Positions 1 through 41,466 of a stretch of 41,466 nt of DNA are shown here, in pieces. Each line of letters opens with the position of its first letter. The stretch's first letter is position 1. The position numbers and the translations under genes are program-made. The notes under the pieces were generated by a model. That model worked only from the letters and a program-made list of their open reading frames with translations, was not told the DNA's origin and did no database searches. Source of the stretch: Promethearchaeota archaeon (GTDB lineage Archaea; Asgardarchaeota; Lokiarchaeia; Sigyniarchaeales; SOKP01); NCBI GenBank assembly GCA_019057865.1, contig JAHLWP010000038.1:1-41466 (forward strand), in the 5' to 3' direction.

Positions 1-1519
1 ACTGGTTTAATCCCGAAAAAGGGAAGGCAACATGATCCTGGTTTTGTGGGTGTTGCTGTGGCAATTGGAGTCATGATAAAGCCCCCTGTCTCTGTTAACC
101 AATGTACGCGCTATGCGTCCATTTTTTGCCAGTAAGTATCGACAATGGGGCATTTCTCTTTTCCAACAACTTTGTGATACCAAGTCCAAGCCTCAGGATT
201 ATTCCCAAATACTTGAGAATTCCAAGTATTAATCGGTTCCCCGACTGTGCCTAGGACTTTTAAAGAACTTAAGTCATGTTTCTTAACTGGTTCATCACCA
301 TATCGCATTAGAGCACGTATAGCTGTAGGAGCGGTATAAATTCCCATTTGAGATTGAAATAATCTAAAATAATGAGTTACCTTATGATGTTCGACAATGT
401 CCCAAAACCTGTATCCGTCGATAGAGTAGAAAAACTCTATATCGTCTACGTCAGGATATGTTGGAACACCTTCGAACATCAAACTTGTCGCTCCATTAGC
501 TAACGGTCCGTATACTATGTAGGAATGTCCGGTAATCCAGCCTATATTTCAGCTAAACATAAGGAATTCTTATATTCATCTGCCGTACAATACCAGACAT
601 CACCTTCATGGTAATTAAATACGATTCTATGCGTAAATGACGTATATAATATATAACCTGCTGTTGTATGTTTAACACCTTTTGGTTTTCCAGTTGTTCC
701 ACTTGTATATAAAATAAATAAAGTATCCTCAGAATCCATTGCTTCAGATTCGCATTCATCGCTCATCCCTTCAATAAAATCGTGATACCAAATATCTTTA
801 TCAGTGTGGGGAACTTCTCTGCCAGATCGTTTTACTACGATAACATGCTCTATTGTTGGAACATCATCAATAATTTGAACCACATCTGCTATTTTTGAAT
901 AGAATTTCCCTGCTCTTAAGGTTTCATCGCTGGTGAATAAGAGTCGTGAGTCAGAATCATCGATTCGGCCCTTTACAGCTTCTTTTGAGAAACCACCAAA
1001 AACTATAGAATGAATAACTCCAAGGCGAGCACAAGCAAGCATTATTATTGCTAATTCAGGAACCATAGGTAACCAAATTGTTACACGATCTCCCTTTTTC
1101 AAACCAAGTTTTTTCATACCATTGGCAACTTTATTAACTTCTCTTAATAATTCTGTGTAAGTGTAGGTTTTAACATGTCCTGGCTCGTCAGCTTCCCAAA
1201 TAAGAGCCACCGTATCACCTTTTCCAGCTTTTATATGTCGATCTAAACAGTTGTAAGCAACATTTAGTTTTCCTCCGACAAACCATTTACCAGGAAACAA
1301 TTCTGTTTTTTCCCATACTTTTTCATAAGGCTCGAACCAGTCTAGAGATTTTGCTTGTTCATCCCAAAAACCTTCCATATCTTCAATTGATTGTTTGTAA
1401 AGTTTCTTATATTCTTCTAAAGACATGCCAGATTTAGCAAATTCCTTGTTTAACTTAATAGGATCAAAAATGCGTGTTTCAGTAAGAATACTTTCCATCT
1501 TTTTGTCTTCTTCAGACAT
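1..1519 (-). CDS. acs: Acetyl-CoA synthetase (AMP-forming), intron-containing; exons 580-1519, 446-547, 371-412, 232-340, 125-201, <1-94; 3' end runs off the window
   Basis: Motifs [22 protein letters not shown] and [13 protein letters not shown]. Removing five BHB introns gives one continuous frame: [60 protein letters not shown]...GEPINPEAW...DTYWQTETGG...KPGS. Confidence 0.95.
95..124 (-). other. Relaxed BHB micro-intron 5 in acs (30 nt, contains in-frame TAG)
   Basis: ggca-aa|a-aatggacgc-atagc-gcgtacatt-ggtt-aa|c-agag. Excision restores DTYWQTETGG. Boundary ambiguous by up to 2 nt (97-126 gives the same product); central helix is weak (G-U, G-U, C-G, A.G). Confidence 0.85.
202..231 (-). 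other. Relaxed BHB micro-intron 4 in acs (30 nt, in frame, no stop)
   Basis: accg-at|t-aatacttgg-aattc-tcaagtatt-tggg-aa|t-aatcct: 9-bp intron stem, central helix with an A.G mismatch. Excision restores GEPINPEAW. Boundary can slide a few nt because taat occurs at both ends. Confidence 0.85.
341..370 (-). other. BHB micro-intron 3 in acs (30 nt, in frame, no stop)
   Basis: ggtaa-ctca-tt|a-ttttagatt-atttc-aatctcaaa-tggg-aa|t-ttatacc: central helix ctca/tggg. Excision creates a TTT codon and restores KVTHFYTAPT. Confidence 0.87.
413..445 (-). other. BHB micro-intron 2 in acs (33 nt, in frame, no stop)
   Basis: cctg-acgt-ag|a-cgatatagag-tttttcta-ctctatcg-acgg-at|a-cagg: exon helix cctg/cagg, central helix with one A.G mismatch. 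Excision gives YPDVDRFW. Confidence 0.85.
548..579 (-). other. BHB micro-intron 1 in acs (32 nt, frameshifting)
   Basis: Minus strand ttgta-cggc-ag|a-tgaatataag-aattc-cttatgttta-gctg-aa|a-tatag: 4-bp central helix cggc/gctg, two 3-nt bulges, 10-bp intron stem. Excision restores GCA GAT ATA GGC TGG (A-D-I-G-W). Confidence 0.92.
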
Positions 1520-1762
1520 AACATTTCATTTCTTTGAATTTTATTATATTTGAATTATTTTATGTTATATTTTTTGTTAATACATTAAAAATTTTAAAGA
1601 TTCATGTTCAGTCTCATCGTAATTAAAATTATTATTTTAATAAGACGAGAATAAGTCAAAAAATAGATATATTAAATCATTTTTAAACATTTTATTTATA
1701 ATTTCAAAAAAAATATATAAAGCCATATAATAATATTTAAATTATTTGAATGATTATAATAT

Positions 1763-3046
1763 TTGATTATGGATGCTAAAAAGTTGAATGGGTATATTTC
1801 CAGATATTTAACCAAACTTAAATCAAGTGAAAACAACATCGAAGAATATTATCTAAAGAAATTGACTGGATTATCACTTGGGACTCAACTATATTGTTTA
1901 CTATCAATGTGTAAGTTGTTTGAAACTGATGAACAAAGAAATATGAGTGGAAGATTTAAACCAAATAATGTAATATTGGAACATGCAGATGTAAATCAGT
2001 TGACTAAAGAGAATATATTTGATTTGTTAAGATGCAAATAGTATAAATCTCTTAAACCACAGACTCAACAATTACATATTAGAAGAATAAGACAATATCT
2101 AAAACATTCTAAAAGAGATGATTTAGAAGAATTATTACCAAAAAAATTTAAAATTGACGCAAAACAACTGAGTAAAACTGACCTAATAACAAGAGATGAT
2201 TTAGAATTAATTTTTAAATTTAGTAATTTATGGGGAAGGACTTTAGTAATGGTGATGTATGAAGGGGCATTGAGACGAGATGAATTATTAAGTATTAGAA
2301 AGAAAGATATAAAATTTGAACGTGGATATGCTATATTAAAAATTGTTCAATCAAAAACTGCTAAAAGAGACATTCCATTAGTTGAAAGCATACCTTATTT
2401 GAAAGAATATTTTGATAATAACTATTTTGAGTCAAATGATTTAATATTTCCTTATAAAGAAGCACATTTTCTAAATATGTATCTTAATGACCTTAAAAAC
2501 AAAATAGCAAAGAAATATCCCGAATGGAAGAACAAAAAAATATATCCACATTTGTTTAGACATTCAAGATTGACAGAATTGGCTTTATCAAAACTTAATG
2601 AACCCCAATTGAGAAAAATAGCAGGGTGGACAGCAAATTCTGATATGCCTAAAATTTATTTTCATTTAGATGATAGTGATATAATTAGTATTATGACAAA
2701 TAATGCAGTACAAAAACCAGAACCAAAAAGCGTTAAATTAGTTATATGTCCCGTCTGTAATATTGAAAATACAGAGCAAAGTACTTTCTGTTGGAAATGT
2801 AATAATATACTCAATGAAGAAAAGAGAAAAGAAGCTGGAATACAATTAATTACGCAATCAGATGAAATAAGAGAACTAAAGAATAAATTGAATGGTATGG
2901 AGAAAATAATTTTAATGTTAGAGGGGTTGTATACTCATCAAATAATCAAAGATAAATACCCAGATATTGAAATTGATAAAGATATCAATGTAACAAATAT
3001 AATTACAAAAGAATTCAATAAAATGTTTGAAAAAGATAAGGAATAA
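1763..3046 (+). pseudogene. Tyrosine recombinase/integrase with C-terminal Zn ribbon, interrupted by one in-frame TAG at 2039-2041
   Basis: ORFs 1763-2041 and 2249-3046 share a frame that is open between them. Catalytic motifs YEGALRRDEL, SKT, HLFRHS, GW...MPKIYFH; CPVC...CWKC. Confidence 0.85.
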
Positions 3047-5744: not shown

Positions 5745-6512
5745 TTGGAGCTTGAAAATATTTTTAATATTGGATGCCTTTTGGGGAATTGTAAAATATG
5801 GACAATATCACCTAAACCTTTTGACTCTCCTTTTTATCAGACAATACTAATCCCTTTAAATATACTAAAAAACAAATTAGAAAATTTAGAAATCCAAGAA
5901 TATGGTAATGAGGTAATAGATATTCTTAAACAAAAAAAAGACAATGAAGAAGAACTGAGTAAAAAAGATATTGAGAAATTAAATAAACGCCTAAAACAAT
6001 TACTTAAAGAATTAATAGAAAATTTAATTAAAAGAATTCCTATTTGGGAAGACAGAATTATTAATGAGTTGATTAAAATTAAAGTAGTGAAGTTATCTAC
6101 TGATACAATTCTAAATCCAGAAAAACTTTCACTTGGAGCAGAATTATTTTTCGATATAAAAATTTGGGATAAAATGTCAAATCTTGAGAAAGATGACTTA
6201 GATGACGGTTGTCGGTGTATTTCATTACAAGCGTGGACTCCAGCTGCGATGATTACAATGAGGGTTATAGAATCGGTTTTAAGAAATTATTACCAGAAAA
6301 TTACTTCAAATGATCCAGTAGGTAAAATGTGGGGATCTATGTTAATTGAATTGAAAAATCATCAATCTGCTAATCAAAAATTAGTTGAATATTTTGATTA
6401 TCTTAAAGATATTAGAAATTCAATCCAACATCCTGATGTAAGATTTTCACAATTTGAAGCTGAAGATACTTTTCATCATGCAATTCATATTTTAAATACA
6501 TTTTATTCTTAA
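5745..6512 (+). CDS. Hypothetical protein with C-terminal HEPN/DUF4145-like domain
   Basis: AAMITMRVIESVLR helix and an Rx4H motif (RNSIQH). Confidence 0.6.
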   Translation: MELENIFNIGCLLGNCKIWTISPKPFDSPFYQTILIPLNILKNKLENLEIQEYGNEVIDILKQKKDNEEELSKKDIEKLNKRLKQLLKELIENLIKRIPIWEDRIINELIKIKVVKLSTDTILNPEKLSLGAELFFDIKIWDKMSNLEKDDLDDGCRCISLQAWTPAAMITMRVIESVLRNYYQKITSNDPVGKMWGSMLIELKNHQSANQKLVEYFDYLKDIRNSIQHPDVRFSQFEAEDTFHHAIHILNTFYS

Positions 6513-18990: not shown

Positions 18991-19719
18991 ATGGAATCAA
19001 GCGAATTTATATCAAGAGTGGATAAATGGGATCAAAAAATCATTCTGAAATATAATGGAATAGGAGGAAAAGCATTTACATATGTATTAAAGCCAATTTC
19101 ATTTCTAGGGAGAGAAACATTATGGATTTCTTTAATAGCATTTTATTTATTAATATGGTATGACCCATTTTTACTTGCACATTTCTCTGCTATATTCTTG
19201 AACGGATTTATTTTAATATTTTCAATTAAGCAAATGGTTAAAAGATCAAGACCTTTTGAAAGATTTAATGAAAATGAATTACAGGTATTGGAACGTAAGC
19301 CCATTTCCAAGAGTTTTCCTTCTTGGCATTCATATAATGTTGTTTCTTATGGCTTGTTATTTGGTTTTTTACTAAATTCACCTTTGGTTATAATTCTTAT
19401 GTTGTTTATTGCTACCGTAGTATCTTTTTCAAGAATTCAAATAGGAGTTCATTATCCTACTGATGTAATTTTTGGTTATTTTCTGGGAATTATTGGCTTT
19501 ATTTCTGCAATTTATATAGTTTCTCCATTATTAAATATGCTCTTAATATATTTTGAACAGTTTACTACACAAGATATTCAATACCAACAAATTAATACAA
19601 TGTTATTTAAAAACTTCTGGTATCTATTTTTGTGTATTGGTATTTTTTTAGGAATATTTTTATTAGCTATATCAAGAATAATTAAAGAATACCTTAAAAA
19701 AAATAGTACGTATTCCTAA
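18991..19719 (+). CDS. PAP2 family membrane phosphatase
   Basis: K-x6-RP, SFPSWH, SRIQIGVHYPTDV. Confidence 0.9.
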   Translation: MESSEFISRVDKWDQKIILKYNGIGGKAFTYVLKPISFLGRETLWISLIAFYLLIWYDPFLLAHFSAIFLNGFILIFSIKQMVKRSRPFERFNENELQVLERKPISKSFPSWHSYNVVSYGLLFGFLLNSPLVIILMLFIATVVSFSRIQIGVHYPTDVIFGYFLGIIGFISAIYIVSPLLNMLLIYFEQFTTQDIQYQQINTMLFKNFWYLFLCIGIFLGIFLLAISRIIKEYLKKNSTYS

Positions 19720-20987
19720 AGATCTAAACGTTTTTTCTTCGCAAACAAGTCTTTTAACTCATCTAGAACCCGTAATCTTGTATTTTCCCTTGCTCCTACT
19801 TTAGCTTGATCTGGGTTAGCAATTCCTATTGGTATGCCACTTTGAGCCACTTGAAATGCTCCTGATTCTATAGCTCGGAGGCGGCTATCGATATCATTTA
19901 ATTGTTTAGCCAGACTTTCAGATAGACGAATAATAACGTTCATGGTTTCTTCTAATGTCTTACCAAGACCATCTACCTTTCTAAGTGTGGGATCAGCTAA
20001 AGAATGGGTATTGCTCATTATCTTTTTTATATATTTAGCAAATTGAGGTTCATGGGAAATCATTGAATATATTGAAGTTAAATAAATCTCGATATCAAAA
20101 GTAAAATCTTTCTTTTGTAATAATTCATTTAATTTCTCCTTTAAAAGCTCAATATTCAATAAAATTTCAGGATCTTTCTTCAAATCAGGATCAAATTTGT
20201 GTATAAAAACTATAATATATGGATTCTCTTCTAAGGCTATTATTAAATCAATAACTTTATCAAAATAGTCTAGTGCTTCATCAAATCTATCTGGATCTTG
20301 GACGTCAATAAGATAAATTAAAAGATCTAATTGTAGAAAGTATTGTTCTGGATTTTCTAAATATCGTGTTCTGTATTCCTTTTGGCCTCCTAAATCCCAG
20401 ATATAGAGGGAAAGCTTGTCACTGCCCACATTCATTCGATAAACTCCTTTTGTTGGTTGCGTCTTGATCAAATCACTTACACCTAAACGTCCTCCTAGTT
20501 TGGATAAGGAAGCTGTTTTACCAGCATTATCCAGTCCTGCTACTACAATCTTTTGTGCTTCAGTTCCAAAGTCTCTTGTATCAGCTTCAAGATTTGTAAT
20601 TATGGAACTTATTGTAATTGCTTTTTTCAAATTTCTTTCAAGTGTAGGATATTTTTCTTTAAGCTCCTCGATTTTTATTGATAAATTTTCTTTCATTTCA
20701 GATACTGTTGATGGATCCTCTGCATCTTCAAGGAATTTAATTATACTTTCAAACGGGTTTTCTTTGTTTAATTTTGAAATTTCACCAATCTTAGAAATTT
20801 CTAGCAATTCTTTTACTATATTTGATTCTTCTTTATTTAAGAATTTAAATGAATGAATTGGTAATTTTAAAATATCATCTAAAGTTTTTAGTTTGTTAAT
20901 CTTAGAATCTTTAGGATCTAAGAATTTAGAAAATACATTTATCACACTAGAAAAATCTGTTTCCGTTTTAGCCATTTTAGTAATCAA
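19716..20987 (-). CDS. Arf-like small GTPase with long N-terminal extension and C-terminal coiled coil
   Basis: G1 GLDNAGKT, G2 PTKG, G3 WDLGGQ, G4 HKFD. Confidence 0.9.
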   Translation of the reverse strand: MITKMAKTETDFSSVINVFSKFLDPKDSKINKLKTLDDILKLPIHSFKFLNKEESNIVKELLEISKIGEISKLNKENPFESIIKFLEDAEDPSTVSEMKENLSIKIEELKEKYPTLERNLKKAITISSIITNLEADTRDFGTEAQKIVVAGLDNAGKTASLSKLGGRLGVSDLIKTQPTKGVYRMNVGSDKLSLYIWDLGGQKEYRTRYLENPEQYFLQLDLLIYLIDVQDPDRFDEALDYFDKVIDLIIALEENPYIIVFIHKFDPDLKKDPEILLNIELLKEKLNELLQKKDFTFDIEIYLTSIYSMISHEPQFAKYIKKIMSNTHSLADPTLRKVDGLGKTLEETMNVIIRLSESLAKQLNDIDSRLRAIESGAFQVAQSGIPIGIANPDQAKVGARENTRLRVLDELKDLFAKKKRLDL

Positions 20988-22110: not shown

Positions 22111-25100
22111 TTAAGATTCAGTTTCAATTAATATCAATTCTTTCTCTTCTTCAAATAATGGTAAAATCTCTAGCATCTCATTAATTTTTGGCAAAAATTT
22201 ATCCATTTTATATGATTTAACATCAATTAAAAACAAGATTAACAAGATATAAAGGGTATCTTCAACTAATTTTCTATTTATTCCTAAACTATTTAAGAAA
22301 TTATTCACGTTATCTCTAATGAGTTGTATAGATTCTCCTGCTTTTAATAAAGATAAACCATGGAGAAGTATTAATAGCGAACTAGTATTATAATCTTGTC
22401 TTTTAGAAATTGTAATAGCTAAATCAAAATATTTTTTACCAGCTTTTTTGAATTCTTTTATTTCTAATAAGCCCAAAACGTCAAAATAATATCGTTTTCT
22501 CATAGCTTTTCGTTTATTATAAAAATCACTTTTATCTCTTCGGATATCTACTGTTTTAGATTTTATTTTGGCAAATCTTTGATCTAATTCTATCAATAAT
22601 TTTGATAATTCACCATACTCCTTTCTTGATAATACTCCTTTTACTTCTTCTTCATAAATTTCTTCACCTAAAAGAGATTTCAATACTGTAATCTCAGGTT
22701 CGAATAGAACTAGTTTTTCAATAAGGAGATTTAGAGTAAACTGAAAAATTTTATTCTCCTCACTTTCAATTGCTAAGTAAAGATAGTTCATAATTTCGAC
22801 TTCAGGTAAAGTTTCTATATAAGGTCCTAGACCTTTAAGATATTTTTCAAATGTTTTTTTAGCAGTTTGAACATTTTCATTAATTAAAATTATTGAACCC
22901 AAAATTAAACTGATTGCAGCTTGCTTATAGAATTTCTTTTCAATGAGTTTAGGAAGAGTATCTAAATAAGAGATTGAAGCATTAAGATATTTTTTATTTG
23001 AAATATCTTCCAAGGCAAGTCTCCAATATTGGTTTTTCATCAATTTTCTTTTTGCAATGTCTGATTTTTCTTTTTGAATTGAATTTGCTAATTTTTTAAT
23101 TTTTCTTTTAACTTCTTCTGTTTCTGCTACTTGTTCAATAGTTTTTTCACGTTTTACCTTTTTTTGGTAATCCTTACCTAAATAATCATAAAGAAATTTC
23201 AATTCTTCTTCGAATAGTGGTAAATTCTCTATATAGGAGATTGCCTCTTTAAGTTTAGGTTTATCTTTAAGTTTCTCTAATTCTATTATGTATTCTATTA
23301 ATTTTATTGGAAAACTTTCAGAAATAAGTTTCCATAAATTAGATAGCTCTTTTTTCGTTTCATTGAATAGTGTAGTAATCTCTTGAGTTTTATTTTGTTT
23401 CATCAGTATTAGACTAGCTATAACTAAAGAAACGCCGCCTAAATTATACTTTTTATTTTTAAAATGTCTAAAAATATTATTTCTATATATTTCTACAGCT
23501 TTATCGTATTCTATATTTTTTAAAAAATTTAAAGCATCGTTAAAATATGCTCTTTTAAATGCTTTCCTTTCTTTTAATTGTTTTTCTTGGTCAAGTAATG
23601 CTTCTTGTCCTTTAGTTTTAACAATTGGTAACCTTTCTTTTAAGATTTCTGCTTCCTTTTTCTTTTCTGCTTCCTTAGATTCACGAGCACTTTTTTCTGC
23701 TTCAAGTTTAGCAATTTTTTTATGCATTTCTGTTTTAAATTCCTTACTTTCAATTCTATCATTATAGACATGGGCGTTATGTAGATCATTTAAATCTATA
23801 TAAATTTCAACGATCTTCTTATATATTTCATCTAAATTAATTTTTAATCGTTCTTCCTTATCAAGATACTTTGAAATAATATTTTCGATTTTTTTTATTA
23901 ATATTGTTGCTTGATTAATCCCAGAGAGGTTTTCTTCACTTTCCAAAACCCTCAAAGCTTCCTTTTTGATAATTTTTATAAAAAGAAGACTTATTTGTTT
24001 TGATTCATCATAAAGCAATTGATTTCTGAAAATTCTATTTGAATTCTCAAAAATACTTTCATTTCTTTTATGAGTCTCTTGTTTCTTAATTTCTTTCAAT
24101 TTTAGTATGTATACAGGATAAACTCTTGTTAAATATTTTTTTTTCATATCTTTTGTAAGATCTTCATATATTACAAAAAAATCTTCAAATATTTTTGCAT
24201 CTAATAACACATCTAAAGATTTTGTTAAGATTTGGTGGCTAATATCTTCTTTACCAATAATTTTAAGATAATTAGCTTGATTTTTAAGAATATTTGCTGC
24301 ATTTAAATGTTCATTTAGCTCAATTAAATTATTAGCTTCTTCGATTTTCTGAGAATTTATGTCCACAATAATATTTAATTCAGCTTCTACAAATTCACCA
24401 AGTAAATCTACTCCTTTTTTAAGATTTTCCTCTATTTCCTTTTTCTTTGATTCTTTATACTCATCTTCTGCTATTGAACTTAATTTTGTTACTTTTTTCT
24501 TTAACTTTAAAGAACTTAATTTACTAATTAAAATCGTAGAAATACCAAAATTATATTCTTTAAGAAATAAGGTTATCAATTTTTCCAATATTGAATCTAG
24601 ATTTTTCTTTTGTACATTATATGATTCCCACATATTTTCAATTTCATCATAAGTTTGTTTTGCGGCATAAATCTTATTTTGATTAACCTGTTCCTTTAAG
24701 ATTCTTATTAATATATCACTTAATTTTTCTGTTAATTTTTCTATTTCTTCAGATAGTCCCTCGCGTTGGTATTTATCTATTGCTCGATATAATTGTTCTC
24801 TTGCCGATTCATAATCATTTATGCTTACCAAGAAATCCCCTTCATCTCTAATTTTTTCTGAGATCTCCTTCAGAATAGTCAAGATTTCTTTATGGGGTAA
24901 ACTTTCGAGAATTCTAAACGCATTTTCAACCCTACAAGCGGAAATCCAAGAATTGATTGATAATCTAAAAGTCTCATGAATTATTTTCTCATCCCTTAAT
25001 TCAATGCTTGACCATTGTGCTGCTTTTTCGTATATTCTCGCTGCTTTTTCATATTTCCCTTTATTAAATAACCGATTACCATCAGTAATCATTGCCTCAG

Positions 25101-25845
25101 CATATAACTTTTTATAATTTATTGATTTTTTTCTGTCAACTCTTTCTAAAATTTTGCTTGCTTCTAAATATAAGTTGAGTTTTGAATAGAGATAAGCTGC
25201 TTGGTCACAAAGGATAAAATATTCTTCTTTATTGTAAATATCGGCAATAAGAGCTGCTTTTTTTACAGCTTGAGCAGCATAATAATAATTTTTGTTATCA
25301 TAGTAAATATTTGCCATTTGGATAAATATTGGAAATCTCATCCATGCATTTTCAATATTTAATGGAGAATCACCATTAATCATAGCTAAACATAGAGCTT
25401 GAAGTGCTTGATGAAAATTTCTAGGATTTAAATTTACAAACGCTTCTAAACTGGGATAATTAACCCAAATGGTTTCCAATAAGTCATTTACTGACATTGG
25501 TAAAACACCATTTTGATCATAAAAAATTATAACTGTTGGTATATCTCTCTTAACCAAAAATATATCGGGAAGAAGCATCTTGAATTTTTCAAATTCTCCT
25601 ACTTCCAAAGGATTTAAAAAGTAAACAATTCCGTCAGCAGTAGGAAGTAGCTCATCAAAATCAGCTGCAATATTTGTAATAACATCAACTTCTAAATCGC
25701 AATAATCTTCTAAAACCCTTATTTCCCTATACCATTCGTTATAAGATTCTTTTTCTTCTCCAATTTCATTAAAAGCTTCAGAAATATAAAGGTTAGATAT
25801 TTCTGGATTGCGGGAAAAGATCAAGATTTTGAAAATGTATCTCAT
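22111..25845 (-). CDS. 1244-aa alpha-solenoid (TPR/SNAP-like) protein, possible degenerate GTPase-fold N-terminus, three C-terminal repeats
   Basis: Helical TPR-like patterns (YEKAARIYEKAA); repeats ending LPLFEEE, LVLFEPE, LPLFEEE. Confidence 0.75.
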   Translation of the reverse strand: MRYIFKILIFSRNPEISNLYISEAFNEIGEEKESYNEWYREIRVLEDYCDLEVDVITNIAADFDELLPTADGIVYFLNPLEVGEFEKFKMLLPDIFLVKRDIPTVIIFYDQNGVLPMSVNDLLETIWVNYPSLEAFVNLNPRNFHQALQALCLAMINGDSPLNIENAWMRFPIFIQMANIYYDNKNYYYAAQAVKKAALIADIYNKEEYFILCDQAAYLYSKLNLYLEASKILERVDRKKSINYKKLYAEAMITDGNRLFNKGKYEKAARIYEKAAQWSSIELRDEKIIHETFRLSINSWISACRVENAFRILESLPHKEILTILKEISEKIRDEGDFLVSINDYESAREQLYRAIDKYQREGLSEEIEKLTEKLSDILIRILKEQVNQNKIYAAKQTYDEIENMWESYNVQKKNLDSILEKLITLFLKEYNFGISTILISKLSSLKLKKKVTKLSSIAEDEYKESKKKEIEENLKKGVDLLGEFVEAELNIIVDINSQKIEEANNLIELNEHLNAANILKNQANYLKIIGKEDISHQILTKSLDVLLDAKIFEDFFVIYEDLTKDMKKKYLTRVYPVYILKLKEIKKQETHKRNESIFENSNRIFRNQLLYDESKQISLLFIKIIKKEALRVLESEENLSGINQATILIKKIENIISKYLDKEERLKINLDEIYKKIVEIYIDLNDLHNAHVYNDRIESKEFKTEMHKKIAKLEAEKSARESKEAEKKKEAEILKERLPIVKTKGQEALLDQEKQLKERKAFKRAYFNDALNFLKNIEYDKAVEIYRNNIFRHFKNKKYNLGGVSLVIASLILMKQNKTQEITTLFNETKKELSNLWKLISESFPIKLIEYIIELEKLKDKPKLKEAISYIENLPLFEEELKFLYDYLGKDYQKKVKREKTIEQVAETEEVKRKIKKLANSIQKEKSDIAKRKLMKNQYWRLALEDISNKKYLNASISYLDTLPKLIEKKFYKQAAISLILGSIILINENVQTAKKTFEKYLKGLGPYIETLPEVEIMNYLYLAIESEENKIFQFTLNLLIEKLVLFEPEITVLKSLLGEEIYEEEVKGVLSRKEYGELSKLLIELDQRFAKIKSKTVDIRRDKSDFYNKRKAMRKRYYFDVLGLLEIKEFKKAGKKYFDLAITISKRQDYNTSSLLILLHGLSLLKAGESIQLIRDNVNNFLNSLGINRKLVEDTLYILLILFLIDVKSYKMDKFLPKINEMLEILPLFEEEKELILIETES

Positions 25846-38809: not shown

Positions 38810-41092
38810 TTAAGTTCTTTTATAGATAAATCTCTCCCAGCTTTTAGTACTTGGCATCTCTAATGGCATATTTTTCCTTTTTCGAATTTCTAAAATAAGA
38901 TCTTCTTCCAAAGAAGGTGGTACTTTCTCAAATCCCTTAAATTCATAACCAAAGAAAGCTCGCCCCTGCGTTGAACTTCGAATTTCATCCGCTATCCCTA
39001 TAATTTCGGCAGCTGGAATTTGTCCTTGAATTCTTACATATTCCCTTTCAGGGATGACATTGTTTATTCGACCTCGATGGCGATTAATTATTGAATTTAC
39101 CCCCGCTTCAGTTCCTTGAGGAGTTTTTACATCTATTCGCTGGATTGGCTCATAAAGATGAGGATCGGCGTTTAACATTGCGAGAGAGAAAGCAGAATAA
39201 CTCATACTGGCAGTCTGTGCATATTGCGTATGTCTAGGGTCTTCGTGTATGACAGCGTCTGTGAACACAGCTTTAATGCCCATAGCTGGTTCTTTAGCTA
39301 TGATACATTCACTAAGCCAATTTCTAAAAGCACTCACAAGATCATTTTTTATTCTATCAAATCTTTGTAATCCAGAAGTTCCATTTACTAGAACATTTCC
39401 TTTAAAAACATCAATAATACGTCTAGCTTCTTTTGTATCCCAACCTGCTTCTTCCCTTAAAATCTGGGCACGTTCTTTTTCATTCTGTAAATCAGTAATT
39501 TTACCCTCATCAATTAATTCTTCAGTTTTTTCATCTAATGGTTCTATGTATAACAAAAGTCGATTATGAGCATTTGATGATTTGGTATGAAATTGTTTAC
39601 TTTTTGCATTAATTTTTTCTCGGTATACTATGATGGGTTCTCCTATATCAATTTTTACTTGATTGTTTATTCTTTTTGTCAAAATTTCAATTTGTAAGGG
39701 ATCGATTCCGCTAAGAATGTATTCCATTGATTCTTTATCAAGACGAAATTCTGCTGTTGGATCTGCTTGTATCCACTTCCCAACAACCTCCCCTAATTTA
39801 CCAAGGTCATGTGGATCTTGGGGTTTAATACTTCTTGATACAACAGCTTTACAAGCATAATGGATTTTTTCAAAAGTAGGGATTTTGCCAATTTCTTCTT
39901 TATCTTTTGGGATCATTTCATTATGTATAAAAGTCTCTCCAGAAGGACAAATGAATCCATATAAAGCAAAGAGATTTCCCGCTGGTATCTTAGGAATGTC
40001 CAAAAGATCTGTTATTTCCATAACACCTAATCTTTTTACCCGATTTGAAGTTCGACTTCCAAGTAGATAAATTGAGTCAGTTTGATTAAAAGTTCCAGAG
40101 AAAACGCGTCCAATCAAAGTTGCTGCATATTGACGTCTTGGGTCCAAAAATATTTTTGTAATCATCCCATATAATGGTCCGCTAGAATCACATTTTTGCA
40201 ATGATTGCCCCAGTTCTGAGTTCAAATCTCCTCCCCAGAGATGGGGAATTCTATATTTAGATGCACTAACAGGATCAGGTAGATGATCAACAACCATTCT
40301 TAACATCGGCTCATCTAATGGTAGATTCTCTCTTAACCATTCTATGTCTCCCTCGTTGTATTTAACAAAAACATCCTGAGGTTTAAGGTTTTTTTCTAGT
40401 AAGATCTCATATGTAAAACCCCACCCATGTTTGGCTGAACCACAGGCTACAGAATTCTTCGCAAAATCAACTCCCCAATTTGAACCTTCAGGTCTCACTT
40501 TCTTAATTAACTCATTGACTTCATTTGTAATTTTATCAATTCTTTCGAAAGTGTCCTTTGGACTAAGTCTTAGTTCACTAATTAATCTATCAACTTTATT
40601 TATAAAAAGGACTGGTTTACAGTATTCTTCGCCTACTGCGAGTCTAATATTAGTTTCGGTTTGCGTCATAACACCCTCAAGGGCATCAACTAGAATTATA
40701 GCACCATCTGAACCTCTGAGAGCTCTTGAAACTTCTCCTGTAAAAGAAATATGCCCTGGTGTATCATTCAATTGAAAAATGTAGGGTTCATTATCGTCCG
40801 GCTTTCTAAGGTCTTGAAATGCAAGTAAAACTACACTTGTGAAGATGGTAATCCCTCTTTCCTGCTCCTCGTCTTTCAGTAAACTAAGTATATCTTAATT
40901 TAAATCTGAATCGGTCATTTGGAGCTGGCCAGCATCCTCTTCCCTCATAAGTCCAGCTCGGCGCAGGAGATAATCTGTAGCTGTGGTTTTACCATGATCT
41001 ATGTGCGCTGTTATTGAGAAAATTCTTTTTTTCTGATATGAGCCAGAAGTGACTAACCTGGCGATCTCCTCAGGATTCTTTACCTTTACTAT
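38810..41092 (-). CDS. Elongation factor 2 family GTPase (likely the divergent paralog aEF-2p), intron-containing; exons 40904-41092 and 38810-40873, 750 aa, probable ATA start
   Basis: AHIDHGKTT, EQERGITI, DTPGH, NKVD, GRVFSG, YRE, STQGRA. Non-canonical SGIDPLQ (normally GMGELH) and HEDPRHTQ (normally HxDxxHRG). No rps12/rps7 next to it. Confidence 0.92.
40874..40903 (-). other. BHB micro-intron in the EF-2 family gene (30 nt, contains in-frame TAA)
   Basis: tcag-at|t-taaattaag-atata-cttagttta-ctga-aa|g-acg: perfect 4-bp central helix tcag/ctga and 9-bp stem. Excision gives TDSDDEEQERGITI with canonical spacing. Confidence 0.92.
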
Positions 41093-41466
41093 CGTTTTTC
41101 ACCAATATTTAATTATTCGTGTTTATAAATTTAGCGTTTGTATTATTATAAAATTCTTATATTGAAACTAATGAAAAAAATATGTTAAATCATAAAAGTT
41201 TTATGAATATAGGCTATAAACTGGATCTACAAAGAAAATAAGTGAAATTTTAATAAAGCCAAATAATAATTAAAATACCTGCTCCCTGCAGGAGCGTTTC
41301 TTAACAATGATACAGAAAAAATGCATGGGGTTTTGATGTTATCTACAAATCGAAAACCTCTTGACGTCTCTTTTCGTGCGAATCCGTTTGCAGTAATAAA
41401 TAACGATCCTAATATAATTATCTGAGGATTAAATGACGAAGAAATTAATTATATCAAAGAAGCTTA

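What the first reader, a model, noticed from the sequence alone, without database searches (positions are those of the whole stretch)
40874..40903. Sixth BHB micro-intron, with a stop codon, in the switch-I region of an EF-2 family gene
Seen: a 30-nt hairpin with an in-frame TAA separates the P-loop exon (AHIDHGKTT) from the rest of the gene. It has a perfect tcag/ctga central helix and 3-nt bulges, and excision yields a full 750-aa protein. Inference: the phenomenon is not specific to acs and is probably genome-wide. Gene callers would annotate a truncated 653-aa protein lacking G1.
Basis: partly seen in the sequence, partly recalled or inferred. Interest (0 to 1): 0.88.

Follow-up and report, generated by a model that had tools for sequence, protein, structure and literature searches.

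The report
tRNA-type mini-intron splitting Asgard EF-2 gene
The gene for the essential translation factor aEF-2 in this Asgard (Loki-type) archaeon is interrupted by a 30-base insert shaped exactly like an archaeal tRNA intron. The protein can very probably be made only after the messenger RNA is cut and rejoined, and near-identical strains lack the insert, so it was gained or lost very recently.

Summary
On the minus strand, window 40903-40874 is a 30-nt insert with an in-frame TAA between the P-loop and the RGITI/switch-I part of an aEF-2 gene.

- **Exact insert.** Thirty-four intronless orthologues from the same genus join the two flanks exactly at GATTCAGAT|GA. So do two strains that are 98.3% identical to this one.
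- **Fold.** The RNA forms a bulge-helix-bulge: a 4-bp helix UCAG/CUGA, 3-nt bulges AU|U and AA|G, a 9-bp inner hairpin, and a distal exon-exon helix GCUCC/GGAGC. Cutting after the second bulge nucleotide reproduces the orthologue junction.
- **Conservation.** At least 19 genomes or contigs carry a homologous insert. The stems are conserved or covary, the loop varies, and the exons are intact (dN/dS 0.04-0.09).
- **Exon constraint.** Synonymous exon sites inside the helices are fixed only in insert-bearing alleles.
- **Shifted copy.** One relative has the intron 6 nt upstream, with a compensating ACAG/CUGU helix.
- **Enzymes.** The genome encodes two EndA paralogues and RtcB.

No RNA data bridged this junction, so splicing is inferred (about 0.88). 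In print, only cbf5 and one Haloferax 5'-UTR are reported to be spliced this way. This scan has already noted the same phenomenon on other DNA: other genes of this genome and many other Asgard genomes, some with RNA support.

The parts
41122..41129 (-). TATA-like box (tttataaa) about 30 nt upstream of the first codon; putative promoter
   Evidence: Read from the sequence. Inference only. It is conserved in same-species strains L063 and L064.
40904..41092 (-). aEF-2 exon 1: 63 codons including the P-loop AHIDHGKT. The first codon is ATA where orthologues have ATG.
   Evidence: Pfam GTP_EFTU.
40921..40925 (-). 5' strand (GCUCC) of the distal exon-exon helix h
   Evidence: MFE fold. Paired in 97% of cells. 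Present together with its partner only in intron-bearing alleles.
40906..40909 (-). 5' strand (UCAG, exon) of the central 4-bp helix H
   Evidence: Invariant in 17 of 17 aligned intron-bearing copies. It is ACAG in the copy shifted by 6 nt.
40903..40905 (-). 5' bulge AU|U, with the predicted cut between 40904 and 40903
   Evidence: Geometry. The cut equals the exon end defined by intronless orthologues.
40874..40903 (-). 30-nt BHB micro-intron
   Evidence: It is the only indel against 98.3%-identical strains. It is absent from 34 same-genus orthologues and present at this site in 15.
40895..40897 (-). In-frame TAA inside the intron
   Evidence: Conserved in all copies as part of the 5' stem strand.
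40880..40902 (-). Inner hairpin h': 9-bp stem (40902-40894 with 40888-40880) and 5-nt loop (40893-40889)
   Evidence: Two pairs show compensatory double changes and the loop is variable.
40876..40879 (-). 3' strand (CUGA, intron) of the central helix H
   Evidence: It is CUGU in the shifted copy L068.
40873..40875 (-). 3' bulge AA|G, with the predicted cut between 40874 and 40873
   Evidence: Geometry. The cut equals the exon 2 start in intronless orthologues.
40864..40868 (-). 3' strand (GGAGC) of the distal exon-exon helix h. It contains two of the three synonymous differences from the intronless sister strains.
38810..40873 (-). aEF-2 exon 2: 687 codons plus stop, covering switch I/G2 (RGITI) to the C-terminus
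   Evidence: It is 686-687 intact codons in all 29 loci examined.
38810..40771 (-). The 653-aa ORF (TTG start) that ORF finders report; it lacks G1 and G2
   Evidence: A 653-aa database entry for an orthologue exists.

Best explanation

**Proposed mechanism.**
1. After transcription, exon nucleotides UCAG pair with intron nucleotides CUGA to form the 4-bp central helix.
2. This helix is flanked by two 3-nt bulges (AU|U and AA|G). A 9-bp intron hairpin (h') and a distal exon-exon helix (GCUCC/GGAGC) hold the fold.
3. The archaeal splicing endonuclease EndA cuts after the second nucleotide of each bulge. Here EndA is a probable alpha-beta heterotetramer.
4. RtcB joins the exons to give ...GAUUCAGAU|GACGAGGAG..., which restores ...QLQMTDSD|DEEQERGITI... 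and a 750-codon reading frame.

**Shown.** The geometry, the exact boundaries, conservation and covariation, the exon constraint, intact host genes, and presence of the enzymes.

**Inferred.** That cutting and joining happen in vivo.

**Second inferred layer.** The intron is evolutionarily mobile at this site. This strain most likely gained it recently by transfer of a short DNA patch from an intron-bearing allele. The patch comprised the intron plus about 9-11 nt of downstream exon and at most 24 nt of upstream exon.
For: 1. **Exact insert.** In 34 intronless same-genus orthologues and in all other-family orthologues, exon 1 residue 63 abuts exon 2 residue 1. Against strains L063 and L064 (98.3% identical over 4067 nt), the only indel is these 30 nt.
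2. **BHB in register.** H = 4 bp, bulges of 3 nt, h' = 9 bp. Fold z = -4.1. Shuffled inserts reach H=4 and h'>=3 in 9e-4 of trials.
3. **Structure conserved in 17 aligned copies.** 97.1% of cells are paired, against at most 48.6% when the partners are slid. Two pairs show double compensatory changes (GC<->AU, UA<->AU). The covariation score exceeds all 500 shuffles. The loop is the most variable part.
4. **Shifted copy.** L068 carries a homologous 30-nt intron 6 nt upstream, after ACAGAU. Its 3' helix strand is changed to CUGU, so that H = ACAG/CUGU. This is exon-intron covariation of the central helix.
5. **Exon synonymous sites.** Those inside H and h are fixed in 13-14 of 14 intron-bearing alleles but vary in 34 intronless ones. 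Neighbouring unpaired synonymous sites vary in both groups. A complete GCUCC/GGAGC helix goes with the intron in 7 of 7 independent contrasts on the gene tree (p = 0.016).
6. **Host gene is functional.** Exon 2 is intact in all 29 loci. dN/dS is 0.04-0.09 while synonymous sites are near saturation (pS 0.64-0.71) between intron-bearing species. An orthologue was found in 41 of 41 relatives and 53 of 54 genus genomes. The only paralogue is 33% identical.
7. **Machinery.** There are two EndA paralogues. One has the Tyr, His and Lys catalytic residues in its motif; the other lacks the His. There is one RtcB. ARAGORN finds introns of 11-61 nt in 16 of 28 tRNA genes.
8. **Same kind of insert elsewhere.** Relatives carry such inserts at AH|IDHGKT and ID|HGKT of this gene. 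Five are present in acs in this window.
9. **Recent gain.** On the gene tree the 8 intron-bearing rows need 7 changes. The own intron is 30/30 identical to that of G001 and G049, whose exon 2 protein is only 79% identical. Three synonymous differences from the sister strains fall within 9 nt downstream of the intron, and none in the next 265 nt. The Poisson probability is about 5e-4, my calculation.
Against: - No RNA evidence for this junction. The public RNA contigs that matched came from relatives, and none bridged 40904/40873.
- The outer helix next to the 3' bulge has only one pair (U-A) before an internal loop. The 3' cut site is therefore less well framed than in a strict hBHBh' motif.
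- Covariation rests on few events among related sequences.
- The gene has ATA at the start position, which could be read as a lesion. However, intronless sister strains and another species share it.
- Co-transfer of the intron with its flanks could inflate the exon-helix association.
Confidence: 0.88

Rival explanations
1. Programmed translational bypassing. The 30 nt stay in the mRNA and the ribosome hops over the hairpin, as in phage T4 gene 60 or the 'byp' inserts of Magnusiomyces mitochondria.
For: The insert is short and forms a stable hairpin with an early stop codon. The flanking codons GAU and GAC are both Asp, so one peptidyl-tRNA could in principle re-pair. No RNA data exclude it.
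Against: - A hop from GAU to GAC would lose one Asp from the invariant DSDDEEQ.
- The stop is not adjacent to the take-off codon.
- Bypassing does not predict a 4-bp helix between two 3-nt bulges in register with the insert ends. It also does not predict the compensating ACAG/CUGU change in the shifted copy.
- The sister insert at AH|ID has non-matching flanking codons, CAU and AUU.
Confidence: 0.03
2. Inactivating insertion. This strain's EF-2 allele is a pseudogene or a non-functional population variant captured in the assembly.
For: There is an in-frame stop, no canonical start codon (ATA), and near-identical strains without the insert.
Against: - The same insert sits in at least 19 genomes or contigs with fully intact exons and dN/dS of 0.04-0.09.
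- The insert itself is conserved with compensatory changes although synonymous sites are saturated.
- ATA is shared with intronless strains and another species.
- The only other EF-2-like gene is 33% identical and lacks the conserved domain IV loop.
Confidence: 0.04
3. The gene is expressed as two polypeptides (a roughly 65-aa P-loop piece plus a C-terminal piece), or the TAA is read through and the ten extra codons are translated.
For: Gene callers annotate a 65-70-aa ORF plus a 671-674-aa ORF in relatives.
Against: - No start codon lies between the TAA and the conserved DEEQERGITI (G2). The first one gives a 653-aa product without G1 and G2.
- Substitutions in the insert follow base pairing, not codon positions, and the TAA is invariant as part of the stem.
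- TAA is an ordinary stop elsewhere in this window.
Confidence: 0.02

Closest known systems
BHB intron in the cbf5 (pseudouridine synthase) pre-mRNA of Crenarchaeota (Watanabe 2002; Yokobori 2009, PMC2738675)
   Same: It is a short BHB intron inside an archaeal protein-coding sequence. It disrupts a catalytic region, so it must be removed. It is removed by the tRNA splicing endonuclease and ligase. Its distribution is patchy, with lineage-specific loss.
   Different: - The host gene (aEF-2) and the phylum (Asgard/Promethearchaeota) differ.
- Here several positions lie within about 110 nt of one gene.
- Presence or absence differs between 98.3%-identical strains.
- One copy is shifted by 6 nt.
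- Flanking synonymous sites change together with the intron.
- Splicing is shown by RT-PCR for cbf5 but not for this junction.
BHB intron in the 5' UTR of Haloferax volcanii HVO_1309 mRNA (Schwarz 2020, PMC7714728)
   Same: It is an mRNA substrate of the archaeal splicing endonuclease, verified in vivo and in vitro. That paper states that cbf5 was until then the only other mRNA case.
   Different: That intron lies in an untranslated region of a euryarchaeon. The one here interrupts the reading frame with a stop codon.
BHB introns of archaeal tRNA and rRNA genes, including the heavily interrupted tRNA genes of Asgard archaea (bioRxiv 10.64898/2026.10.13.758758)
   Same: The motif and cut positions are the same. 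Sizes are similar: ARAGORN reports tRNA introns of 11-61 nt in this genome. Two EndA paralogues fit the (alpha-beta)2 type that the preprint reports in 44 of 60 Asgard genomes. The preprint also reports repeated gains.
   Different: The host here is an mRNA, so splicing must precede or compete with translation. That preprint has no occurrence of 'mRNA' and one of 'protein-coding', used only for neighbouring genes.
Unconventional cytoplasmic splicing of HAC1/XBP1 mRNA in eukaryotes (IRE1 endonuclease with RtcB or Trl1 ligase); from my own knowledge, not tested here
   Same: It works alike. A small intron (26 nt in XBP1) is defined by RNA stem-loops, cut by a protein endonuclease, and sealed by an RtcB-type ligase. 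This changes the reading frame of an mRNA.
   Different: The endonuclease is different (IRE1, not EndA/TSEN) and so is the RNA motif. That splicing is regulated by stress. There is no evidence of regulation here.

Membership tests
Archaeal bulge-helix-bulge (BHB) intron | [quoted passage not shown] | tested here: met
   UCAG/CUGA with bulges AUU and AAG. All four pairs are intact in 17 of 17 aligned copies.
Archaeal bulge-helix-bulge (BHB) intron | Cuts after the second nucleotide of each bulge give the functional exon junction | tested here: met
   The predicted junction GATTCAGAT|GACGAG equals the junction of intronless orthologues and sister strains to the base. The boundaries cannot slide.
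Archaeal bulge-helix-bulge (BHB) intron | Flanking helices h (exon-exon) and h' (intron) on either side of the bulges | tested here: inconclusive
   h' is a 9-bp helix. Next to the bulge, h is only one U-A pair, followed by an internal loop and a 5-bp GCUCC/GGAGC helix. This fits the relaxed HBh' class, not the strict hBHBh' class.
Archaeal bulge-helix-bulge (BHB) intron | Splicing endonuclease and RNA ligase encoded by the organism | tested here: met
   PF01974 gives two hits above the cut-off (C71 and C69). PF01139 RtcB gives one hit, E = 1.7e-168. The ORFs were read.
Archaeal bulge-helix-bulge (BHB) intron | Intron absent from the mature RNA | not testable with these tools
Archaeal/eukaryotic elongation factor 2 (aEF-2) | Five-domain translational GTPase architecture with G1 (AHIDHGKT) and G2 (RGITI) | tested here: met
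   Pfam hits GTP_EFTU, EF-G_D2 (below its cut-off), EFG_III, EFG_IV and EFG_C. The best solved relatives are archaeal EF-2, E = 1.7e-137 over the full length.
Archaeal/eukaryotic elongation factor 2 (aEF-2) | Conserved domain IV tip with the diphthamide His in the context H-R-G | tested here: inconclusive
   The His is present, but the context is HEDPRHTQYAQ rather than HRG. The paralogue on C87 lacks the loop altogether. Diphthamide genes were not searched.

The most novel reading that the evidence does not exclude
BHB micro-introns of Asgard archaea are actively mobile elements of protein-coding genes. Three observations fit this reading. The EF-2 intron entered this strain after it split from 98.3%-identical sister strains, carried on a patch of only about 40-65 nt from an allele of a distantly related species. 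It can relocate between neighbouring NCAGAU sites, with a compensating change in its own helix strand. It makes synthesis of an essential translation factor depend on the tRNA-splicing machinery. If this is general, the closest archaeal relatives of eukaryotes would be undergoing an ongoing spread of protein-spliced introns through their coding genes.
Probability: 0.5. Interest if true: 0.85.

Novelty: new member of a known kind. Interest (0 to 1): 0.72.

Why it matters
- **Beyond what is in print.** In the papers I could search, endonuclease-type splicing of an archaeal coding sequence is documented only for cbf5, plus one Haloferax 5'-UTR. Here the interrupted gene is the essential translocase aEF-2, in the archaeal group closest to eukaryotes.
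- **Annotation.** Gene callers split or truncate these genes, as the 653- and 671-674-aa database entries lacking the P-loop show. In-frame, stop-free introns would be read as lineage-specific insertions.
- **Evolution.** Three observations make gain, loss and relocation of protein-spliced introns directly testable: strain-level presence or absence, synonymous changes that travel with the intron, and the 6-nt shifted copy.
- **Cell biology.** In a cell without a nucleus, the message must be spliced before or in competition with translation.

Tried and rejected
- **RNA evidence.** One run search and one read-laying run returned only short contigs from relatives. None bridged 40904/40873, so nothing can be said either way.
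- **Genome-wide scan.** I scanned for the BHB geometry combined with ORF merging. Observed counts were close to chance expectation, for example 5 against 3.4 at L=30 and 9 against 4.6 at L=31. The loose motif is frequent in 29% GC DNA, and adjacent genes mimic split ORFs. The scan did recover this intron and one acs intron but gives no genome-wide number.
- **Copies of the intron elsewhere in the genome.** None with 6 or fewer mismatches in 30 nt. It is not a dispersed repeat.
- **Long conversion tract.** The cluster of 11 differences at 41006-41046 against L063 matches the intronless L003 (47 of 50 nt), not the intron donors. It is a separate recombination patch, not part of the intron transfer.
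- **G060's longer open frame.** It is a 59-codon in-frame insertion or duplication in exon 2, not a micro-intron.
- **The TAA in G005's paralogue.** It comes without an insertion.
- **Other intron types.** Group I, group II and spliceosomal introns were rejected: 30 nt is too small, and the ends are UU...AA with no GU-AG.
- **Assembly artefact.** Rejected, because independent assemblies share the insert.
Full report
**What is there.** The window is a whole 41,466-bp contig (C82) of a 4.26-Mb genome with 29% GC. The genome encodes Gtr1/RagA- and Arf-type small GTPases. Its EF-2 relatives are labelled Promethearchaeota/Lokiarchaeota in public records. It is therefore an Asgard archaeon.

On the minus strand, an EF-2 family gene runs from 41092 to 38810. 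Read in frame, it gives ...SITAHIDHGKTT...QLQMTDSD, then ten extra codons LN*DILSLLK, then DEEQERGITIF.... The ten codons are window 40903-40874, and the TAA is 40897-40895. ORF finders report only a 653-aa ORF (38810-40771) that lacks G1 and G2. Pfam finds all five EF-G/EF-2 domains across the read-through. The best solved relatives are archaeal EF-2, E = 1.7e-137. The genome has one other EF-2-like gene (C87), which is 33% identical and lacks the domain IV tip loop.

**The insert is exact.** I searched 40 relatives and then the whole genus. The orthologue was found in 41 of 41 and 53 of 54 genomes. In the intronless ones, the last codon of exon 1 (GAT) directly abuts the first codon of exon 2.

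Fifteen genus genomes carry a 30-nt insert at exactly this place. Three more metagenomic or NCBI contigs do too (L065-L067). A fourth (L068) carries a homologous insert 6 nt upstream.

The most telling comparison is with two contigs of the same species: L063 (an NCBI assembly) and L064 (a JGI metagenome). They are 98.3% identical to the window over 4067 aligned bases, promoter region included. Their only indel against the window is these 30 nt.

**The fold.**
- Exon nucleotides UCAG (40909-40906) pair with intron nucleotides CUGA (40879-40876).
- Each is followed by three unpaired nucleotides, AU|U and AA|G.
- Between them lies a 9-bp hairpin with a 5-nt loop.
- Cutting after the second bulge nucleotide, the rule for archaeal BHB introns, removes exactly 40903-40874.
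- My scanner scores it H=4, h'=9 and proximal h=1.
- The MFE fold adds a distal 5-bp exon-exon helix, GCUCC (40925-40921) with GGAGC (40868-40864). Its z-score is -4.1, and 0 of 200 shuffles fold as well.
- Shuffling the 30 nt between fixed flanks gives an in-register BHB in 9e-4 of trials (h'>=3) or 1.3e-4 (h'>=6).

Because the outer helix next to the 3' bulge is a single pair, this is the relaxed HBh' type. That type is the substrate class of (alpha-beta)2 and epsilon2 endonucleases (PMC5829648, abstract seen).

**Conservation and covariation.** In 17 aligned copies, 97.1% of cells in the proposed pairs are standard pairs. This falls to 31-49% when the 3' partners are slid by 1-3 columns. 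Two h' pairs change on both sides (GC<->AU and UA<->AU). The covariation score exceeds all 500 shuffles (the 14-sequence version is). The 5-nt loop is the most variable stretch.

Synonymous sites between intron-bearing species are near saturation (pS 0.64-0.71), while dN/dS is 0.04-0.09. A neutral 30-nt insert would therefore have diverged far more than this one has, and the host genes are under strong purifying selection. Exon 2 is an intact 686-687 codons in all 29 loci.

**The shifted copy.** In L068 the intron sits after ACAGAU, not after the next hexamer UCAGAU. Its stems match the others in 8 of 9 positions per strand. Its 3' helix strand reads CUGU instead of CUGA, so H = ACAG/CUGU. RNAfold recovers H, the 3-nt 5' bulge, the 9-bp hairpin and the GCUCC/GGAGC helix. 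This is covariation between an exon nucleotide and an intron nucleotide of the central helix. Neither a junk insert nor ribosomal hopping predicts it.

**Exon constraint.**
- Third-codon positions inside H and h, and at the bulge, are fixed in 13-14 of 14 intron-bearing alleles. They vary in the 34 intronless genus alleles.
- Neighbouring third positions outside the structure vary in both groups.
- The intron-bearing alleles use G/C-ending codons (CAG, CTC, GAG, GAG) where intronless alleles mostly use A/T-ending ones.
- On a tree built from exon 2 without its first 90 nt, a complete GCUCC/GGAGC helix accompanies the intron in 7 of 7 independent contrasts (p = 0.016).
- If the intron and its flanks travel together by recombination, these contrasts are not fully independent. 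Either way, the helix belongs to the unit.

**Machinery.** The genome has two EndA-domain genes above Pfam's cut-off and one RtcB. One EndA ORF keeps a Tyr...His...Lys pattern (VVYKKGPGLEHS...RKK). The other lacks the His. By my knowledge of the Y-H-K catalytic triad, this suggests a catalytic alpha subunit and a structural beta subunit. That matches the two-paralogue pattern a 2026 preprint reports for most Asgard genomes. ARAGORN finds only 28 tRNA genes, 16 of them with introns of 11-61 nt, so this enzyme has many substrates of similar size.

**Dynamics.**
- On the gene tree the 8 intron-bearing rows need 7 changes and are no more clustered than shuffled labels.
- The window's intron is 30/30 identical to that of G001 and G049, whose exon 2 protein is 79% identical. 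Together with flanking exon, 65 consecutive nucleotides are identical.
- The window's nearest relatives all lack the intron and read GAT GAA GAA at the start of exon 2: L063, L064, G012 (95% aa identity) and G063.
- The window reads GAC GAG GAG there. These three differences lie within 9 nt, and there are none in the next 265 nt, against a background of 70 substitutions in about 4040 nt. The Poisson probability is about 5e-4, by my arithmetic.
- The region 31-100 nt upstream is closest to L063 (68 of 70), not to the intron donors (52-54 of 70).

The simplest reading is a recent gain by transfer of a very short DNA patch from an intron-bearing allele. The alternative is loss in every sister lineage with convergent flank decay, which needs more events. 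I found no copy of the intron elsewhere in the genome. Movement is therefore allele-to-allele at this site or its neighbour, not transposition. No nuclease gene lies next to EF-2 in this window.

**Rivals.**
- *Translational hopping* would delete one Asp from the invariant DSDDEEQ. It does not explain the BHB register or the ACAG/CUGU change. The sister insert at AH|ID has non-matching flanking codons.
- *A pseudogene* is contradicted by at least 19 intron-bearing genes with intact, strongly constrained exons.
- *Split expression or read-through* is contradicted by the absence of a start codon before G2 and by stem-wise substitution patterns.
- *An assembly artefact* is excluded by independent assemblies.

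**What is missing.** RNA evidence is missing. Laying four runs gave contigs from relatives only, and none crossed the junction. My genome-wide BHB-plus-ORF scan was uninformative. The gene also has ATA where orthologues have ATG (41092-41090). Intronless sister strains and G063 share this, and a 750-aa NCBI entry (P0010) whose N-terminus matches G063's gene begins with Met at that codon. I therefore treat it as an unusual start, not as decay, but it is unresolved.

**Known or new.**
- Papers I could search report endonuclease splicing of archaeal mRNA only for cbf5 in Crenarchaeota and for a 5'-UTR intron in Haloferax. The 2020 paper says so explicitly.
- A 2026 preprint on Asgard tRNA introns has no occurrence of 'mRNA'.
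- This scan has already noted the same phenomenon many times. It was noted in other genes of this genome, in acs on this window, and in 57 notes from at least 41 genomes. Some follow-up agents reported RNA contigs with the intron removed. I did not check those notes.

Mechanistically this is a new member of a known kind. Four points go beyond cbf5: the host gene is an essential translation factor, four insert positions lie within about 110 nt, presence or absence differs at strain level, and one copy is shifted with compensation.

Noticed in passing
window 1-1525, minus strand: An acetyl-CoA synthetase gene (Pfam ACAS_N and AMP-binding), cut off by the contig end, shows five extra stretches of about 30 nt relative to the usual ACS motifs. 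One causes a frameshift (548-579; BHB found by my scan). One carries a stop. Three are in frame without stops.
   Followed up: partly
window 41090-41092, minus strand: The codon at the orthologues' start Met is ATA, and no in-frame ATG, GTG or TTG precedes the P-loop. An out-of-frame GTG lies 8 nt upstream. The same ATA and upstream sequence occur in same-species strains L063 and L064 and in G063 (L056). G013 (L022) also has an Ile codon there. A 750-aa NCBI entry (P0010) whose N-terminus matches G063's gene begins with Met at that codon.
   Followed up: partly
L012, L041 and L042 (G018, G041, G069): P-loop codons of the EF-2 orthologue: A second 30-nt insert with two or three stops lies between AH and IDHGKT. 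H is GCGC/GCGU and the inner hairpin has 4-9 contiguous pairs in two copies (one by my contiguous count in L042, where RNAfold draws an offset 8-bp hairpin). A compensatory change is seen (UAUAUUGAG/CUUAUUAUA against UAUAGUGAG/CUUACUAUA). G018 carries both introns. Some of the 702-aa entries, and the 720-aa entry starting at DHGKTT, in the protein database probably reflect this intron; others (P0001-P0006) are explained by the ATA start instead.
   Followed up: partly
L066 (NCBI contig), about 150 nt upstream of the switch-I intron: A 31-nt insert lies between ID and HGKT of the P-loop. This is a third position in the same motif. Its central helix has one A.G mismatch (AUAG/CUAG).
   Followed up: no
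window 41006-41046: There are eleven differences from the 98.3%-identical strain L063 within 41 nt of exon 1. In this stretch the window matches the more distant G012 (47 of 50). It looks like a separate short recombination patch.
   Followed up: partly
G000:C87:17930-19912 (L002): A second EF-2-like gene, 33% identical and about 730 aa, has a normal P-loop but no conserved domain IV tip loop. It was found in most relatives searched. In G005 it carries an in-frame TAA without an insertion.
   Followed up: partly
whole genome G000: ARAGORN detects only 28 tRNA genes, 16 of them with anticodon-loop introns of 11-61 nt. Many tRNA genes are probably missed because of non-canonical or multiple introns.
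   Followed up: no
L065 1-204: In one intron-bearing metagenomic contig, the gene upstream of EF-2 (794 aa) has a faint LAGLIDADG_3 hit. No such gene lies next to EF-2 in the window.
   Followed up: no
L069 (G060), exon 2 of the EF-2 orthologue: A 59-codon in-frame insertion or partial duplication follows residue 175 of exon 2. It is not a micro-intron and could be an assembly artefact.
   Followed up: partly
window 2249-3046, 5745-6512, 19716-20987 and 22111-25845: Four other genes caught my eye. The first is a phage-integrase-family gene. The second has a weak HEPN match. The third is a 423-aa Gtr1/RagA- and Arf-like small GTPase. The fourth is a 1244-aa ORF without any Pfam match.
   Followed up: no
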